Part shown: piece after piece, positions 37,786-57,643 of the stretch
Layout: each line of letters starts with the position of its first letter
Numbering within the stretch: position 1 is the first letter of the stretch
Position numbers and translations under genes: made by a program
The notes under the pieces: generated by a model
Seen by the model: only the letters and a program-made list of their open reading frames with translations
Databases searched by the model: none
What the model was told of the DNA's origin: nothing
Source of the DNA: an uncultured Mycoplasmatota bacterium
GTDB lineage: Bacteria > Bacillota_I > Bacilli_A > RF39 > UBA660
Reading direction: 5' to 3'
Assembly (NCBI GenBank): GCA_900552495.1
Contig: URZY01000005.1
Coordinates: 55,030 to 119,029, forward strand
DNA: 64,000 nucleotides

Positions 37786-37938
37786 ATTATTAATCTCCCT
37801 TCGCCTATATCTTGTATAGACTTGCTCCGTGCGAATAACCCAATAACTAGTTAACAACTTAACCCGGTGTATCGGCAACCTCGCACATCTAAGCAGTCAC
37901 ACGGTTATAATTATAACAGGGGTCTTATTGTTTTGCAA
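37786..37938 (-). promoter_or_regulatory. S10-operon sigma-A promoter (-35 TTGCAA at 37933-37938, 17-nt spacer, extended -10 TGTTATAAT at 37910-37918) plus a roughly 115-nt GC-rich structured 5' leader
   Basis: The minus strand reads TTGCAAAACAATAAGACCCCTGTTATAAT. The leader is roughly 50% GC in a roughly 28% GC genome and contains the helix GUGCGAGG...UUCGCACGG enclosing CCGAUACACCGGG. Confidence 0.5.
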
Positions 37939-53221: not shown

Positions 53222-56041
53222 TCATTCCGATAATATTTTCTTTAAAAATTGACCGGTATATGACTCTTTTACTTCGGCTATTTCTTCTGGAGTACCAGTT
53301 GCAACGATTGTTCCACCGGCATCGCCACCTTCTGGGCCAAGATCAATGATGTGGTCTGCTACTTTGATTACATCTAAGTTGTGTTCAATCACTACTACCG
53401 TGTCTTTATTATCTACTATTTTCTGTAAAATTGCAAGTAAACGCTTAATATCATCAACGTGAAGTCCAGTGGTTGGTTCATCTAAAACAAATAAAGTTTT
53501 ACCAGTTGCTTTACGTTGTAGTTCTTTTGCTAATTTAACACGTTCAGCTTCTCCACCAGATAAGGTAGGGGCACTTTGACCTAATTTTATATAACCTAAG
53601 CCTACCTCTTCTAAAACTTGTAATTTATGTTTTATTTTAGGAACATTATCAAAAAATGTTAAAGCCTCTGTTACTCGCATATCTAAAACTTCGGCAATGT
53701 TTTTGCCTTTATATTTTATGTTTAGAGTCTCCCTATTATATCTAGTTCCATGACAAACTTCACAAGGAACATAAACATCTGGTAAAAAATGCATCTCGAT
53801 TTTTTTGACACCGTCTCCACGGCAGGCTTCACAACGTCCACCCTTTACATTAAAGGAAAATCTATTTTTCTCAAAGCCATACATTTTTGCTTCTTTAGTA
53901 GTTGTAAATAGGGTTCTTATATCATCAAAAACGCCAGTGTAAGTAGCCGGATTAGATCTTGGAGTTCTTCCAATTGGATTTTGTGAGATTGCAACAATCT
54001 TGTCTAAATTGTCCATACCAAGAATCTTTTCATATTTACCCGGTTTTTCTTTAGTGTTATATAAATATTTAGAAAGAGCTTTACAAAGAATTTCATTTAT
54101 TAAACTACTTTTCCCACTACCAGAAACACCTGTAATACAAGTAAATGTTCCAAGCGGGATATCAACATTAATATTTTTTAGGTTATTTTCACGTGCACCT
54201 TTTATTTTAAGATATTTTTTGTTGCCTTTTCTTCTTTCTTTTGGTATTTCAATGCATTTTTTGCCACTTAAGTATTGTCCCGTAATGCTGCTATCATTTT
54301 GCATTACTTCTTCCGGTGTTCCTTGGGCAATAATTTGACCACCTGCATCCCCTGCACCAGGTCCAATATCTACCAAATAATCACAGGCTAACATAGTATC
54401 AGTATCATGTTCTACAACAATGAGAGTATTACCTAAATCTCGCATTTCTTGCATTGATTTAATTAATTTGGCATTATCTCGTTGGTGCAATCCGATACTT
54501 GGCTCATCTAAGACATATAAAACTCCTGTTAAATGAGAGCCTATTTGAGTCGCTAAACGAATACGTTGTGCTTCTCCTCCAGATAGTGTTCCCGCACTTC
54601 TATTCAACGTTAGATAGTCAAGCCCTACATTTGATAGGAAACTTAAACGTTCATTTATTTCTTTTAAAACTAGAGTAGCGATTTGCTTTTGTTCTTCTGT
54701 TAACGTTAATTTACTATAGGAATTTAGTAGTTCTTTAATACTCATACAGGTAACTTCATAAATATTTTTACCATCTACTTTTACAGATAGAACTTCGTCT
54801 TTTAGTCTTGCTCCTTGACAAGCGTCACAAACATGCTCAACCATGTAGTTCTCTAACCAATCACGAACCCAAGTAGAGCTTGTTTCCATGTAACGACGTT
54901 CTAGGTTATTAACGATGCCTTCATAAAAGTCTTTACTATTATAACTGTTACCGCTCTTAGACTTATATGAAAAGTGAATTATTTCGTCAGAACCATATAA
55001 GATAACTGATTGTTGCTTAGGAGTTAGACTCTTCCATGGTTTAGTCATATTGATTTTGTAATGCTTACACAAGCATTCTAGTTTTTTATAATCTAATCCT
55101 TCCGGGTCATCTGTTAAGGTTTTTATACATCCGGAAGCAATAGATAGATTTTTATCAGGAATAAGAAGGTCTTCATCAATTTGCAATTTTACTCCTAAGC
55201 CTTTGCATTCTGGACAGGCACCATATGGAGCATTAAAACTAAATGTTCTTGGCTCTAATTCGCTTAATGAGAAGTCACAGTGTGGACAAGCAAATTGTTC
55301 AGAAAAAACAACTTCTTTAGCATTTTCCCCTAATATTTGAACAATAACTTTTCCGGCGGCTAACTTAGTAGCCGTCTCAATGGCTTCAAAGATTCGACTG
55401 TGAGAATCTTCTTTGATGACAACACGGTCAATTACAACATCGATATTATCTTTTTTATTTTTATCTAGTTCAATATTATCGCTTAAATCAACCATTTCCC
55501 CATTAACTCTTATTCTTACATAACCCTCTTTACGTAATTTATCAAGTAAATCCTTGTGAGTTCCTTTTTCACCATGAACAACTGGGGCAAGAATAATTAT
55601 TTTGGTTCCTTCACCATATTCTAAAACTTTATCAGTCATTTCTTCAACACTCTGTGATGAAATTGGAATATTGTGGGTTGGACAATATGGTACCCCTACT
55701 CTTGCAAATAAAAGACGTAAGTAATCATATATTTCTGTCACAGTTCCAACCGTGGAACGTGGATTGTTAGATGTTGTTTTTTGATCAATACTAATAGCAG
55801 GAGATAACCCCTCAATACTGTCGACATCAGGTTTTTCTGAGCCCCCTAAGAATTGTCTCGCATAGGCTGACAGACTCTCTACATAACGACGTTGTCCTTC
55901 AGCATAAATTGTATCAAAAGCCAATGAACTTTTACCACTACCCGATAATCCAGTCATAACAATCATTTTATTTTTTGGTAGTTCTATATCTATATTTTTT
56001 AGGTTATTTTCACGTGCACCTTTAATTATAATTTTATCCAT
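53222..56041 (-). CDS. uvrA: Excinuclease ABC subunit A
   Basis: 939 aa; two ABC modules ([11 protein letters not shown] and [10 protein letters not shown]) plus zinc fingers. Confidence 0.95.
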
Positions 56042-56097
56042 AATATCACCCGGCTCTTATTATAACACAAAAAAAGAAAATAATGCGGATTATTTCC

Positions 56098-56949
56098 TTA
56101 TTTAAATCGATTTTTATAAGTACATTTTTGACATAATTCTTCAATTGGATGATGATTTTGAAATGATTTTTTTAAGTCTTGACAGCGTTTACTATTAATT
56201 ATTTTTGTGAATGAGTCTTTAAATATATTCCCTAGTTCAATTTCTCCATTACTGTCAAGGCAGCAGGGAACAACTGTTCCGTCGGACAAAATTGCTATTT
56301 GAGTTTTTAAGGCCATACAGAAACCATCGCTGGTTTTAGAGGTAGTGGTTGTTGGCCACTCAAACTCATTATCTTTATCCACATAAATTGTGGAAGAAAT
56401 TTTGACATTGTTCTCGGTTTTTAATTTTTCCACCGTTCCTGGGGATAAATTATAATATTTAGTCAATTTTTCCACTGTTTTTAGGGACTTCTCATCTAGC
56501 TTTTTATTTTGAAGTGTCCATAGACGATAGATTACCACAGTATTTGGGGATAACTTTTCTACACTCTTAAATATTTTTTCTTCATAATTAGGAATATTTT
56601 GCTCACAATGTAAGGAAAAGTTTATTTTATGTAAAGCTTTACATTCTTTTAATTCTTCTACTAATTTAGGAAATAAAATCCCGTTTGTTGTAATATTGAC
56701 TTTCATATCAAAGTCTTGGGCTATTTTTAAAAACGTAGATAAACTTTTATGTAATAATGGTTCGCCCTTAACATGTAAATATATATTATCTGTATATGGT
56801 TTTATTTGCTCTAAAATATGAGAAAACTCTTTAATTGTCATAGATCTAGGTGGCCGCAAAACTTTACTACAAAAATGACAAGATAGGTTACAGATATTAG
56901 TTATTTCAATATAAACCTTTTTAAATTTCTTCTTCATTATATACCACAC
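56098..56949 (-). CDS. Small radical SAM enzyme with a C-terminal SPASM/twitch-like auxiliary cluster domain
   Basis: The CxxxCxxC motif is ICNLSCHFC and the SAM motif is GEPLL. The C-terminus has DGTVVPCCLDSNGEIELGNIFKDSFTKII and CQKC, matching the SPASM pattern G.v.PC...G.lGNi...sl.eiw. The protein is 283 aa. Confidence 0.65.
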   Translation of the reverse strand: MWYIMKKKFKKVYIEITNICNLSCHFCSKVLRPPRSMTIKEFSHILEQIKPYTDNIYLHVKGEPLLHKSLSTFLKIAQDFDMKVNITTNGILFPKLVEELKECKALHKINFSLHCEQNIPNYEEKIFKSVEKLSPNTVVIYRLWTLQNKKLDEKSLKTVEKLTKYYNLSPGTVEKLKTENNVKISSTIYVDKDNEFEWPTTTTSKTSDGFCMALKTQIAILSDGTVVPCCLDSNGEIELGNIFKDSFTKIINSKRCQDLKKSFQNHHPIEELCQKCTYKNRFK

Positions 56950-57643
56950 AGACTAAATTTTTTCCTGGCTTATTTCCAAGATTAGAAAAATATTTATTAT
57001 TTGTTGTTGAATCAGTATTATCAAAGTAAATATTATTAGGATCGACAATTTCTTTAATTAAAGTATTGAAGATAGCATATCTAATATCTAAAAAGGTCTT
57101 CTTTTTCCTTTTAATTGTAGTATCTTTCCAAATATAATTATTTGTTAATAAGGATGGCGCAACTTCTAATTTATCTTTATTTGGGCAAGCACTAATATAG
57201 AAGGTCATTTCAAATGGTGCCGCGTTGGTTTCTTTTATTAAACTTTCAACGATTTCATGTAATAAGTTATTGTTTAAGTTTTCTAATGTACCAATAGCAA
57301 TAGCTACTACTGAATGACCAGTCTCTGTTTGAGCGGAGGCTATTATAACTGGATAGTCATCCATTTCAGCAGCAACGCATAAACCGTTGCTACTATCTTT
57401 TAGTAATAAAATAGCTTCTTTTACTTTTTTGATAGATGGAGTTACCACTCGAGATTTAATCTCTTTATTTTTATTTGGTAATATTATAACTTTTTCAGAA
57501 TCTATATTTTTCTTGGCAAAAAAACGCTTTAAAGTATTTTCATATAAAAGGTTTCTCTCTGCCGATGAAAGCGTTGGGAAAAACTTTTTCTCATTTGACA
57601 TAATTCCATCTTTTTGAGACGAAATAAATACATTTAACTTCAT
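56921..57643 (-). CDS. Hypothetical protein (240 aa), translationally coupled upstream partner of the radical SAM enzyme
   Basis: It overlaps the rSAM gene start by 29 nt. There is a weak resemblance to the DUF152/YfiH pattern (CVAAEMDDYPVII...TGHSVVAIAIG), but the HAGWRG motif is absent, so the family is unassigned. Confidence 0.35.
   Translation of the reverse strand: MKLNVFISSQKDGIMSNEKKFFPTLSSAERNLLYENTLKRFFAKKNIDSEKVIILPNKNKEIKSRVVTPSIKKVKEAILLLKDSSNGLCVAAEMDDYPVIIASAQTETGHSVVAIAIGTLENLNNNLLHEIVESLIKETNAAPFEMTFYISACPNKDKLEVAPSLLTNNYIWKDTTIKRKKKTFLDIRYAIFNTLIKEIVDPNNIYFDNTDSTTNNKYFSNLGNKPGKNLVCVVYNEEEI

What the first reader, a model, noticed from the sequence alone, without database searches (positions are those of the whole stretch)
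56098..57643. Radical SAM/SPASM enzyme plus coupled 240-aa partner inserted between uvrB and uvrA
Seen: a 283-aa radical SAM protein (CNLSCHFC, GEPLL) has a C-terminal SPASM/twitch-like Cys cluster (PCCLDSNGEIELGNIF..., CQKC). Its start is overlapped by 29 nt by an upstream 240-aa protein of unassigned family, with only a weak DUF152-like pattern. A weak AT hairpin and a separate uvrA promoter (TTATAAT) follow. Established: uvrB and uvrA are adjacent in most Firmicutes, and small SPASM radical SAM enzymes are typically peptide or cofactor maturases acting with a partner protein. I found no convincing precursor-peptide ORF, so the substrate is unknown.
Basis: partly seen in the sequence, partly recalled or inferred. 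Interest (0 to 1): 0.6.

Follow-up and report, generated by a model that had tools for sequence, protein, structure and literature searches.

The report
Orphan radical SAM enzyme inside uvrBA
Two real genes sit between uvrB and uvrA: an uncharacterised BtrN-like radical SAM enzyme that, in this group of uncultured gut Bacilli, repeatedly sits behind DNA-repair genes, and a YfiH-like protein that has lost its catalytic residues; this does not look like a peptide-maturase pair.

Summary
Both ORFs are real, conserved and tightly packed in the order uvrB, 240-aa protein, radical SAM (rSAM) protein, uvrA.

- **rSAM protein.** Its likely start is the ATG at 56937, giving 279 aa. It has a CX3CX2C cluster plus one fully Cys-ligated auxiliary cluster. 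That makes it a "twitch" enzyme like BtrN, not a full two-cluster SPASM. It has no peptide-recognition domain and no precursor ORF nearby. It fits no curated family; public records call its relatives only "radical SAM/SPASM domain-containing protein".
- **240-aa protein.** It has a DUF152/YfiH/YlmD fold (TM about 0.7), but the catalytic Cys and a His are replaced in every member. It occurs only in a few subclades, always in the order uvrB, partner, rSAM. It is an accessory, not an obligate partner.
- **New finding.** Across 163 related loci the rSAM gene lies directly behind uvrB in 63, often with overlapping stop and start codons. It lies behind uvrB with one or two inserted genes in 19, behind nth in 17 (2 more with an insert) and behind recG in 3. 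It is near tag in one locus and beside an SPL-family gene in another. In cultured Firmicutes and Fusobacteria the neighbours are unrelated to repair.

My best reading is an orphan BtrN-type rSAM oxidoreductase co-expressed with DNA repair, substrate unknown. The peptide-maturase reading is not supported.

The parts
57656..59620 (-). uvrB, first gene of the unit; its stop is 12 nt before the partner's ATG, with AGGAGG between them
   Evidence: ORF; Pfam UvrB domains on orthologues; junction sequence
56921..57643 (-). 240-aa DUF152/YfiH-fold protein lacking the catalytic Cys and His (accessory 'partner')
56098..56937 (-). Radical SAM twitch enzyme, 279 aa from the ATG at 56937 (alternative GTG at 56949 gives 283 aa)
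56869..56892 (-). Codons for C16-N-L-S-C20-H-F-C23, the CX3CX2C radical SAM [4Fe-4S] motif
   Evidence: Invariant in 79 family members; Pfam PF04055
56122..56319 (-). Twitch region: C207, C225, C226, C269 and C272, ligands of one auxiliary [4Fe-4S] cluster
   Evidence: Invariant Cys; they align with the BtrN auxiliary-cluster Cys; Pfam SPASM E 9e-16
56069..56099 (-). Weak terminator-like hairpin (11-bp A/U-rich stem, CCGC loop) followed by a T-run
   Evidence: -6.5 kcal/mol, z -3.06
56059..56067 (-). TGtTATAAT extended -10-like element ahead of uvrA
   Evidence: Read from the sequence; a consensus match only, function not shown
53222..56041 (-). uvrA, downstream of the pair
   Evidence: Pfam UvrA domains on orthologues

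Best explanation
**What it is (shown).** The unit is uvrB, then a degenerate YfiH-like protein, then a BtrN-like twitch radical SAM enzyme, then uvrA, in an uncultured low-GC gut member of the Bacilli. The rSAM belongs to a widespread, uncharacterised family of about 270-295 aa. Members occur in the uncultured Bacilli clade and also in Paenibacillus, Brevibacillus, Lysinibacillus, Clostridium and Fusobacteria.

**How it most likely works (inferred).**
- The CX3CX2C cluster cleaves SAM to a 5'-deoxyadenosyl radical, which abstracts a substrate hydrogen.
- The single, fully Cys-ligated auxiliary cluster takes up the electron, as in the rSAM dehydrogenase BtrN. The net result would be an oxidation, or a redox-assisted rearrangement, of a small or nucleoside-like substrate, or of a DNA lesion.
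- In this clade the gene is co-transcribed with uvrB, and its start often overlaps the uvrB stop, consistent with translational coupling. In sister clades it sits behind nth or recG. I therefore infer that it serves the DNA-damage and genome-maintenance programme, for example by reversing or processing a damaged base or nucleotide.
- The 240-aa protein keeps the nucleoside/nucleotide-binding YfiH fold but not its catalytic triad. It is most likely a non-catalytic, lineage-specific accessory subunit, perhaps for ligand binding or delivery, and is dispensable in most relatives.
For: **rSAM architecture**
- Pfam Radical_SAM plus SPASM.
- Invariant C16/C20/C23 and C207/C225/C226/C269/C272 across 79 sequences.
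- BtrN is the best match by sequence (E 4.5e-9, both domains aligned) and by fold (E 2e-11). The next fold hits include sugar- and nucleoside-acting rSAM enzymes (BlsE, AbmM, SpeY, DesII).
- No curated family matches, and names in public records are generic.

**Gene context**
- Of 163 loci, uvrB is directly upstream in 63, typically with a gap of -8 to +14 nt.
- uvrB lies upstream with one or two inserted genes in a further 19.
- nth is directly upstream in 17, plus 2 with an insert. recG is directly upstream in 3, with an 11-nt overlap.
- The nth, recG, tag and SPL neighbours were identified by Pfam.
- The NJ tree indicates a single origin each for the nth and recG arrangements.
- In some relatives the gap from the rSAM to uvrA is only 27-119 nt.

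**Partner**
- The fold matches only YfiH/YlmD/PgeF structures.
- Canonical ADC is replaced by xD[YDNE], and H[AC]G by [ILQKA][GA][TS], in every member.
- The nearest relatives that keep the Cys and His sit elsewhere, for example ychF-DUF152-rpsF.
- The triad is required for YfiH/YlmD activity (PMC8844914; PMC6978800).
- The partner always occupies the same slot and is patchily distributed.
Against: - The link to DNA repair rests on gene order alone, and only within one broad uncultured Bacilli clade.
- In cultured Paenibacillus, Lysinibacillus, Psychrilyobacter atlanticus, Cetobacterium, C. sporogenes and Proteiniborus the neighbours are unrelated to repair. No Pfam family recurs there: at most 3 of 121 neighbours share one.
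- lgt, cofD and whiA are equally syntenic with uvrA in this clade without any functional link, so vertical inheritance can preserve an accidental position.
- There is no LexA box upstream of uvrB.
- The pI of the rSAM is near neutral (6.4-7.3) in cultured Bacillales, so there is no sign of DNA binding.
- The rough enrichment estimate (3 of about 11 operonic upstream contexts are repair genes; binomial P about 0.003 assuming 3% repair genes) is post hoc.
- The substrate, the dehydrogenase-type chemistry and the partner's role are all untested.
Confidence: 0.45

Rival explanations
1. The rSAM is a housekeeping or stress-related small-molecule (metabolite or cofactor) enzyme with no tie to DNA repair. 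Its position behind uvrB, nth or recG is a historical accident, preserved by low rearrangement rates in reduced genomes.
For: - Outside the uncultured Bacilli clade the neighbours are miscellaneous: SIR2, isochorismatase, nitroreductase (twice), rubrerythrin, GNAT, MerR, ArsC.
- The closest structures act on small molecules.
- The pI is near neutral in cultured members.
- The uvrB-uvrA interval collects unrelated genes in this clade.
- uvrA-lgt-cofD-whiA synteny is equally stable.
Against: Three separate operonic placements behind three different repair genes (uvrB, nth, recG), plus tag and SPL neighbours, are unlikely if placement were random. Stop/start overlaps with uvrB and recG are maintained across deep divergence, down to 42% identity.
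Confidence: 0.35
2. One reading: a peptide (RiPP) or protein/cofactor maturase that acts together with the 240-aa partner on an unidentified precursor.
For: - SPASM/twitch rSAM enzymes include many peptide maturases. SkfB, SuiB and EpeE are among the fold hits, and several NCBIfam maturase models give weak hits.
- The two genes overlap.
Against: - No RRE domain: the rSAM core starts 7 residues from the N-terminus.
- No precursor ORF fits in the window, and none recurs in 163 loci.
- The partner is absent from most genomes that carry the rSAM and lacks catalytic residues.
- No protease, transporter or immunity genes travel with it.
Confidence: 0.05
3. A nucleoside-centred pair. The rSAM modifies or cleaves a nucleoside or nucleotide-sugar, or is a queuine-lyase-like salvage enzyme. 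The YfiH-like protein binds that nucleoside or the 5'-deoxyadenosine by-product.
For: - DUF152 proteins bind inosine and UDP-MurNAc and metabolise adenosine, MTA and 5'-deoxyadenosine (PMC6978800; PMC8844914).
- The top fold hits of the rSAM include the nucleoside- and sugar-acting BlsE, AbmM and DesII.
- QueL is an rSAM used by gut bacteria (PMC11130926).
Against: - The catalytic triad is lost in the partner.
- The partner is dispensable in most lineages.
- No recurrent queK, queT or tgt neighbours appear.
- The one preQ1 riboswitch seen lies on the other strand, 3.3 kb away.
- The QueL sequence could not be obtained for comparison.
Confidence: 0.1
4. An atypical activating enzyme for a glycyl-radical enzyme such as anaerobic ribonucleotide reductase (NrdG-like).
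For: NrdD lies directly downstream in one locus (L050). A TSCPD-domain gene lies upstream in three loci. There is a weak NCBIfam NrdG2 hit at E 2.7e-9.
Against: The NrdG2 score is 36.6 bits against a cut-off of 131. Only one of 163 loci has the NrdD adjacency. Activases of this type do not normally carry a BtrN-type twitch domain (my knowledge).
Confidence: 0.03

Closest known systems
BtrN (2-deoxy-scyllo-inosamine dehydrogenase, butirosin pathway; PDB 4M7T)
   Same: Similar small size (about 250-280 aa). The rSAM core starts at the N-terminus. There is one auxiliary [4Fe-4S] cluster in a C-terminal twitch domain, and all four ligand Cys align. It is the best hit by both sequence and fold.
   Different: Only 16-17% identity. 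There is no aminoglycoside gene cluster. The family has an extra invariant Cys (CC-L-D) and its own invariant His55, His63, His110, Arg138, Trp140 and Trp194. The substrate is unknown.
Spore photoproduct lyase (SplB/SPL, PF20903)
   Same: It is the only established radical SAM DNA-repair enzyme, so it is a possible functional analogue given the uvrB, nth and recG contexts. An SPL-family gene lies 81 nt downstream of a family member in L052.
   Different: No Pfam SPL match, and SPL is not among the top 50 fold hits. To my knowledge SPL has no auxiliary cluster. This protein is not a member of that family.
YfiH/PgeF, YlmD and FAMIN (DUF152, PF02578)
   Same: The partner has the same fold (TM 0.63-0.74). 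There is weak but consistent Pfam similarity, and 25-29% identity to intact DUF152 proteins of related low-GC bacteria.
   Different: The catalytic Cys and the second His are replaced in every member, and there is no invariant His at all. It sits next to an rSAM gene rather than in cell-division or ribosomal-protein neighbourhoods. It is probably non-catalytic.
SplB-like rSAM linked to UDG and DUF4130 ('putative DNA modification/repair radical SAM protein')
   Same: Another rSAM tied to DNA repair only through gene neighbourhoods (PMC3765255).
   Different: A different family: it is not among the 25 best NCBIfam matches listed. It has different partners and no twitch domain (my knowledge).

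Membership tests
Radical SAM superfamily (PF04055) | CX3CX2C motif binding the SAM-cleaving [4Fe-4S] cluster | tested here: met
   C16-X3-C20-X2-C23 is invariant in 79 sequences; Pfam E 8.5e-13
Radical SAM superfamily (PF04055) | Partial TIM-barrel core fold with a GGE-like SAM-binding motif | tested here: met
   AF2 model pLDDT 85.9; 50 rSAM structures match at E<=1e-3; invariant G58-E59-P60
SPASM subclass (two auxiliary clusters) | Seven-Cys motif CX9-15GX4C ... CX2CX5CX3C ... C | tested here: not met
   Only C207-X12-G-X4-C225 and C269-X2-C272 are present. There is no CX5CX3C, and the protein ends 7 residues after C272.
Twitch subclass (one auxiliary cluster, BtrN type) | Four Cys equivalent to the BtrN auxiliary-cluster ligands | tested here: met
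   The phmmer alignment to 4M7T places C207, C225, C269 and C272 (C211, C229, C273 and C276 in GTG-start numbering) on the four BtrN Cys. Cluster content itself was not measured.
BtrN orthologue (2-DOIA dehydrogenase) | High similarity and an aminoglycoside biosynthetic context | tested here: not met
   16-17% identity; no such genes in 163 loci
RiPP rSAM maturase | Adjacent precursor peptide and/or an RRE (peptide-recognition) domain | tested here: not met
   No N-terminal extension; no RRE Pfam hit; no recurrent small ORF next to the gene
Spore photoproduct lyase (PF20903) | Match to the SPL profile | tested here: not met
   No hit at E<=1, whereas the neighbouring gene in L052 hits at 1.6e-22
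NrdG / glycyl-radical activase | Score above the NCBIfam cut-off | tested here: not met
   TIGR02495: 36.6 bits against a cut-off of 131
QueL (queuine lyase) | Orthology to C. difficile YP_001088187.1 and clustering with queK/queT | not testable with these tools
   The sequence was not obtainable. No queK, queT or tgt family ranks among the 25 most frequent neighbour families, where the maximum is 3 of 121.
DUF152 / YfiH (PF02578), for the 240-aa protein | The alpha/beta/alpha YfiH fold | tested here: met
   The top 18 Foldseek PDB hits are all DUF152 structures, at E 3e-12 to 6e-10
DUF152 / YfiH (PF02578), for the 240-aa protein | Pfam gathering score | tested here: inconclusive
   The window protein scores 19.8 bits against 22.9. 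All 24 family members hit, with a best E of 2.3e-8. A profile of the family finds no PDB YfiH by sequence.
DUF152 / YfiH (PF02578), for the 240-aa protein | Catalytic Cys-His-His triad (E. coli H71/C107/H124; YlmD H80/C125/H142) | tested here: not met
   C107 aligns with Y/D/N/E and H124 with I/L/Q/K/A in all members. The family has no invariant His. Triad definition.

The most novel reading that the evidence does not exclude
This family is a second kind of radical SAM genome-maintenance enzyme, unrelated to spore photoproduct lyase. It would be a BtrN-type rSAM that works alongside UvrB, Nth and RecG in anaerobic gut Bacilli to reverse or process a lesion directly, without light or oxygen. 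One example would be re-oxidising a 5,6-dihydropyrimidine or resolving a radical-derived cross-link, either in DNA or in the nucleotide pool. In some lineages a catalytically dead YfiH-fold protein would serve as its nucleoside-binding adaptor.
Probability: 0.2. Interest if true: 0.85.

Novelty: new variant of a known kind. Interest (0 to 1): 0.55.

Why it matters
[quoted passage not shown] Here a conserved, uncharacterised twitch rSAM is embedded in nucleotide-excision (uvrB), base-excision (nth) and fork-rescue (recG) operons of abundant uncultured gut bacteria. That gives a concrete and testable candidate for oxygen-independent damage processing.

Homologues exist in tractable hosts (C. sporogenes, Paenibacillus, Brevibacillus), so genetics and anaerobic enzymology are feasible.

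The partner is also a clear example of a DUF152/YfiH fold that has shed its Cys-His-His triad while staying under strong purifying selection. This is relevant to the unsettled question of what DUF152 proteins do.

If the gene order turns out to be accidental, the result is still useful. It removes a false RiPP lead and defines a large orphan rSAM family.

Tried and rejected
- **LexA/Cheo box.** Searching GAAC-N4-GTTC found none upstream of uvrB. One copy lies inside the rSAM gene, consistent with chance.
- **Riboswitches.** An Rfam scan of the window and of 8 cultured loci found nothing upstream of the rSAM. A TPP element and a preQ1 element belong to other genes on the opposite strand.
- **Anti-phage defence.** PADLOC gave only generic rSAM-core similarity to pVip, and nothing for the partner.
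- **Curated families.** No NCBIfam equivalog matched.
- **PDB sequence searches for the partner.** Neither the single sequence nor the family profile gave a hit. Only the fold comparison worked.
- **QueL hypothesis.** The primary paper and the sequence are not held, and no Q-salvage neighbours appeared, so I dropped it as unsupported.
- **The other 239-aa gene in the uvrB-rSAM slot (L009, L013).** I tested whether it is a diverged partner. hhalign gave probability 0.3%, so it is not detectably related.
- **Variable genes between the rSAM and uvrA.** They are a mixed set (GT1, HAD, DUF7666, bPH, DUF3267, unknowns) with no shared theme.
- **Neighbour-family enrichment outside the clade.** None was found.
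- **pI as a proxy for DNA binding.** Uninformative to slightly negative.
- **SPL adjacency.** It is not conserved in the congeneric P. atlanticus.
Full report
**1. The observation**

- ORF listing reproduces both genes at the stated coordinates on the minus strand, flanked by uvrB (57656..59620) and uvrA (53222..56041). lgt and a CofD/YvcK-like gene lie further downstream.
- The junctions are tight. The uvrB stop is followed by 12 nt containing AGGAGG and then the partner's ATG.
- The partner's last codons overlap the rSAM start.
- After the rSAM stop comes an 11-bp A/U-rich hairpin (-6.5 kcal/mol, z -3.1) with a T-run, then TGtTATAAT and GGTGA before the uvrA ATG.
- The generic terminator scan did not report this hairpin, because it has too few G-C pairs. 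It is at best a weak terminator.
- Every homologue begins MKKFKK. The rSAM start is therefore the ATG at 56937 (279 aa), and the overlap with the partner is 17 nt.

**2. The radical SAM protein**

*Family assignment*
- Pfam finds Radical_SAM (E 8.5e-13) and SPASM (E 9.3e-16).
- No NCBIfam model comes near its cut-off. The best is 65 bits against 380.
- Cluster members from Paenibacillus, Brevibacillus, Lysinibacillus, Clostridium, Psychrilyobacter and Cetobacterium are all labelled "radical SAM/SPASM domain-containing protein" or similar generic names.

*Conserved residues.* In an alignment of 79 family members the invariant Cys are C16/C20/C23 and C207, C225, C226, C269 and C272. Other invariant residues are His55, His63, His110, Arg138, Trp140, Trp194 and Asp228.

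*Cluster count*
- The pattern CX12GX4C ... CX2C, with no CX5CX3C, indicates one auxiliary cluster (twitch).
- phmmer against the PDB aligns both the core and this C-terminal region with BtrN, placing the four Cys on BtrN's four auxiliary-cluster Cys.

*Structure*
- The AF2 model (pLDDT 85.9) finds BtrN first (E 2e-11). BlsE, SuiB, SkfB, AbmM, MoaA, anSME, EpeE, PqqE, SpeY and DesII follow.
- The barrel begins at residue 7, so there is no room for a peptide-recognition domain.

**3. The 240-aa protein**

*Fold and family*
- It has a small family: 146 clusters at 90% identity, and about ten 50% clusters at E<=1e-30.
- The AF2 model is very confident (pLDDT 94.6).
- Its only significant PDB matches are the 18 DUF152 chains: YfiH, YlmD, PgeF, CC_0490 and NMB0706 (E 3e-12 to 6e-10, TM 0.63-0.74, 11-18% identity). 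The next hit is CheD at E 5e-3.
- All 24 aligned members hit Pfam PF02578 weakly.

*Catalytic residues*
- YfiH uses His71, Asp89, Cys107 and His124 (PMC8844914).
- YlmD and FAMIN use the equivalent Cys-His-His triad to hold the ribose of a purine nucleoside. FAMIN also turns over 5'-deoxyadenosine (PMC6978800).
- The partner family has no invariant His, and its one invariant Cys (C153) lies elsewhere.
Its residue numbers match the published H71, C107 and H124.
- In those alignments ADC becomes xD[Y/D/N/E], and H[A/C]G becomes [I/L/Q/K/A][G/A][T/S]. This holds in every member, down to 42% identity.

*Nearest intact relatives*
- More distant relatives (E 1e-30 to 1e-15) keep ADC and AHCG.
- They are 25-29% identical to the window protein over the full length.
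- One of them sits between ychF and rpsF-ssb-rpsR, not near any rSAM.

*Conclusion on the partner.* It is a degenerate offshoot of a housekeeping DUF152 lineage. A block of near-invariant residues (KETNAAPFEMTFYIxACP, VDPNxIYFD) shows that it is still under selection.

**4. Distribution and context**

*Genome collection (80 species from GTDB-derived contigs)*
- About 45 loci, at 42-72% identity, belong to uncultured "Bacilli", "Mollicutes" or "Tenericutes" gut MAGs. These include UBA660 and UBA3789; I believe this is the RF39 group, from memory. In these loci uvrB lies immediately upstream.
- The rest (39-47% identity) include cultured Paenibacillus, Lysinibacillus, Solibacillus, Psychrobacillus and Clostridium disporicum, with no uvrB nearby.

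*Metagenome collection.* I seeded a second scan with a member not linked to uvrB. It returned 80 more loci.

*Pooled classification of the gene immediately upstream of the rSAM*

| Upstream context | Loci |
|---|---|
| uvrB directly upstream (gaps mostly -8 to +14 nt, about 30 with overlapping stop/start) | 63 |
| uvrB with the partner inserted | 8 |
| uvrB with other inserts | 11 |
| nth directly upstream (arrangement dnaD-nth-rSAM-asnB) | 17 |
| nth with an insert | 2 |
| recG directly upstream (11-nt overlap) | 3 |
| tag nearby | 1 |
| other | 47 |
| contig end | 11 |

*How the neighbours were identified*
- nth was identified by Pfam HhH-GPD (3e-24) together with a C-terminal Cys cluster.
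- recG was identified by the RecG_wedge, DEAD, Helicase_C and RecG_dom3_C domains.
- tag scored 1e-79 and lies divergently about 390 nt upstream in L054.
- An SPL-family gene (1.6e-22) follows the rSAM by 81 nt in a Psychrilyobacter MAG. Another lies 4.9 kb away in L054.

*Tree.* An NJ tree places the nth-linked and the recG-linked genes in one clade each. uvrB linkage is spread over the whole uncultured clade.

*Partner.* It appears in three separated subclades, and its identity tracks that of the rSAM: 72/72, 52/65 and 44/53%. This fits vertical inheritance with repeated loss. Every sampled partner homologue sits in the order uvrB, partner, rSAM.

**5. How strong is the repair link?**

*For*
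- I counted distinct operonic upstream contexts, meaning same strand and no more than about 125 nt away.
- There are about eleven. Three are repair genes: uvrB, nth and recG.
- The other eight are GNAT, an unknown pair, a SpoIVB-like gene, a pseudouridine synthase, an M20 peptidase, an unknown, TSCPD and an isochorismatase.
- I assumed that about 3% of genes are repair genes. On that basis the binomial probability of seeing three or more is about 0.003.
- This is a rough, post hoc figure.

*Against*
- Neighbours in cultured Firmicutes and Fusobacteria are unrelated to repair.
- The SPL adjacency is not kept in P. atlanticus.
- No LexA box precedes uvrB.
- The rSAM is not notably basic where genome composition is neutral.
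- The uvrB-uvrA interval of this clade accumulates miscellaneous genes.

I therefore rate a functional tie to DNA-damage handling as plausible, at roughly 0.35-0.45 including the nucleotide-pool variant. It is not established.

**6. Mechanism**

*Shown*
- The sequence motifs for two clusters are present.
- The fold is BtrN-like.
- The gene sits in an operon with uvrB.
- The partner has lost the YfiH triad.

*Inferred*
- SAM cleavage is followed by hydrogen abstraction, and the auxiliary cluster acts as the electron acceptor, as in the rSAM dehydrogenase BtrN. The invariant His, Arg, Trp and second Cys would line the substrate pocket.
- The partner is a non-catalytic binder, possibly of a nucleoside or nucleotide, and is dispensable in most lineages.
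- The chemical idea of re-oxidising a reduced pyrimidine lesion is speculation.

**7. Comparison, novelty and verdict**

The protein is a member of the radical SAM superfamily and of the twitch subclass. It is not a member of the full SPASM class, BtrN orthologues, SPL, NrdG or any curated maturase family. The partner has the DUF152 fold but fails that family's catalytic criterion.

I found no paper linking rSAM enzymes with uvrB or with DUF152. The known repair-linked rSAM enzymes are SPL and the SplB-like/UDG-linked group.

I class the finding as a new variant of a known kind. The peptide-maturase interpretation is not supported. The more interesting lead is the recurrent embedding of this orphan rSAM in DNA-repair operons.

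Noticed in passing
L009:7274-7993, L013:7274-7993; also L150, L158, L155, L119 (upstream of the rSAM): A second recurrent gene family (216-239 aa, 7 loci) fills the same slot between uvrB and the rSAM as the DUF152-like partner. Its stop overlaps the rSAM start (-14, -4 or -1 nt). It has no Pfam hit and no detectable similarity to the partner.
   Followed up: partly
window 59844-60599 (+): An exodeoxyribonuclease III-like ORF (assigned by eye from the sequence MKIVSWNVAGFRAC...) is transcribed divergently from uvrB, so this corner of the genome groups three repair genes. I did not check whether the arrangement is conserved in relatives.
   Followed up: no
window 60677-61033 (+), 61006-61410 (+), 61500-62897 (-): By eye these are an ArsC/Spx-family ORF, a desulfoferrodoxin-like ORF and a rubredoxin-fused FMN glutamate-synthase-like ORF, which together suggest an anaerobe. 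An ArsC-family gene also lies 234 nt upstream of the rSAM homologue in C. sporogenes (L174:4417-4767).
   Followed up: no
window 56268-56279: GAACAACTGTTC, a match to the Firmicute LexA (Cheo) box core, lies inside the rSAM coding region. None lies upstream of uvrB. There are two matches in the window against 0.5 expected; 10 of 100 shuffles reach two.
   Followed up: yes
L084:6683-7532; L023:8001-8837: The rSAM gene is split into two ORFs in one metagenome contig, while near-identical contigs keep it intact, and also in one MAG. This could be occasional decay or an assembly error.
   Followed up: no
L050:4481-6328; L153, L157 and L161 upstream ORFs: Anaerobic ribonucleotide reductase NrdD lies directly downstream of the rSAM in a Tissierella MAG. 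A TSCPD-domain gene lies directly upstream in three metagenome loci, with murG downstream. These are further neighbours related to DNA precursors.
   Followed up: partly
L172:5919-6620; L175:4428-4976: In P. atlanticus a SIR2 gene follows the rSAM by 34 nt. In Proteiniborus an isochorismatase-family gene precedes it by 25 nt. Both families can be connected to nicotinamide/NAD metabolism, which may be coincidence.
   Followed up: no
L071:4623-4669 (-): A preQ1 riboswitch (41.3 bits, gathering score 39) lies 3.3 kb from the rSAM homologue of Psychrobacillus mangrovi, on the other strand and serving other genes.
   Followed up: partly
window 37801-37899 (-): An S10-Clostridia ribosomal-protein leader is the only Rfam match in the window at gathering threshold.
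   Followed up: no
L089:6001-6795: The nearest catalytically intact relatives of the partner (ADC and AHCG motifs kept) sit between ychF and rpsF-ssb-rpsR. I do not know this as a usual position for ylmD/pgeF genes.
   Followed up: partly
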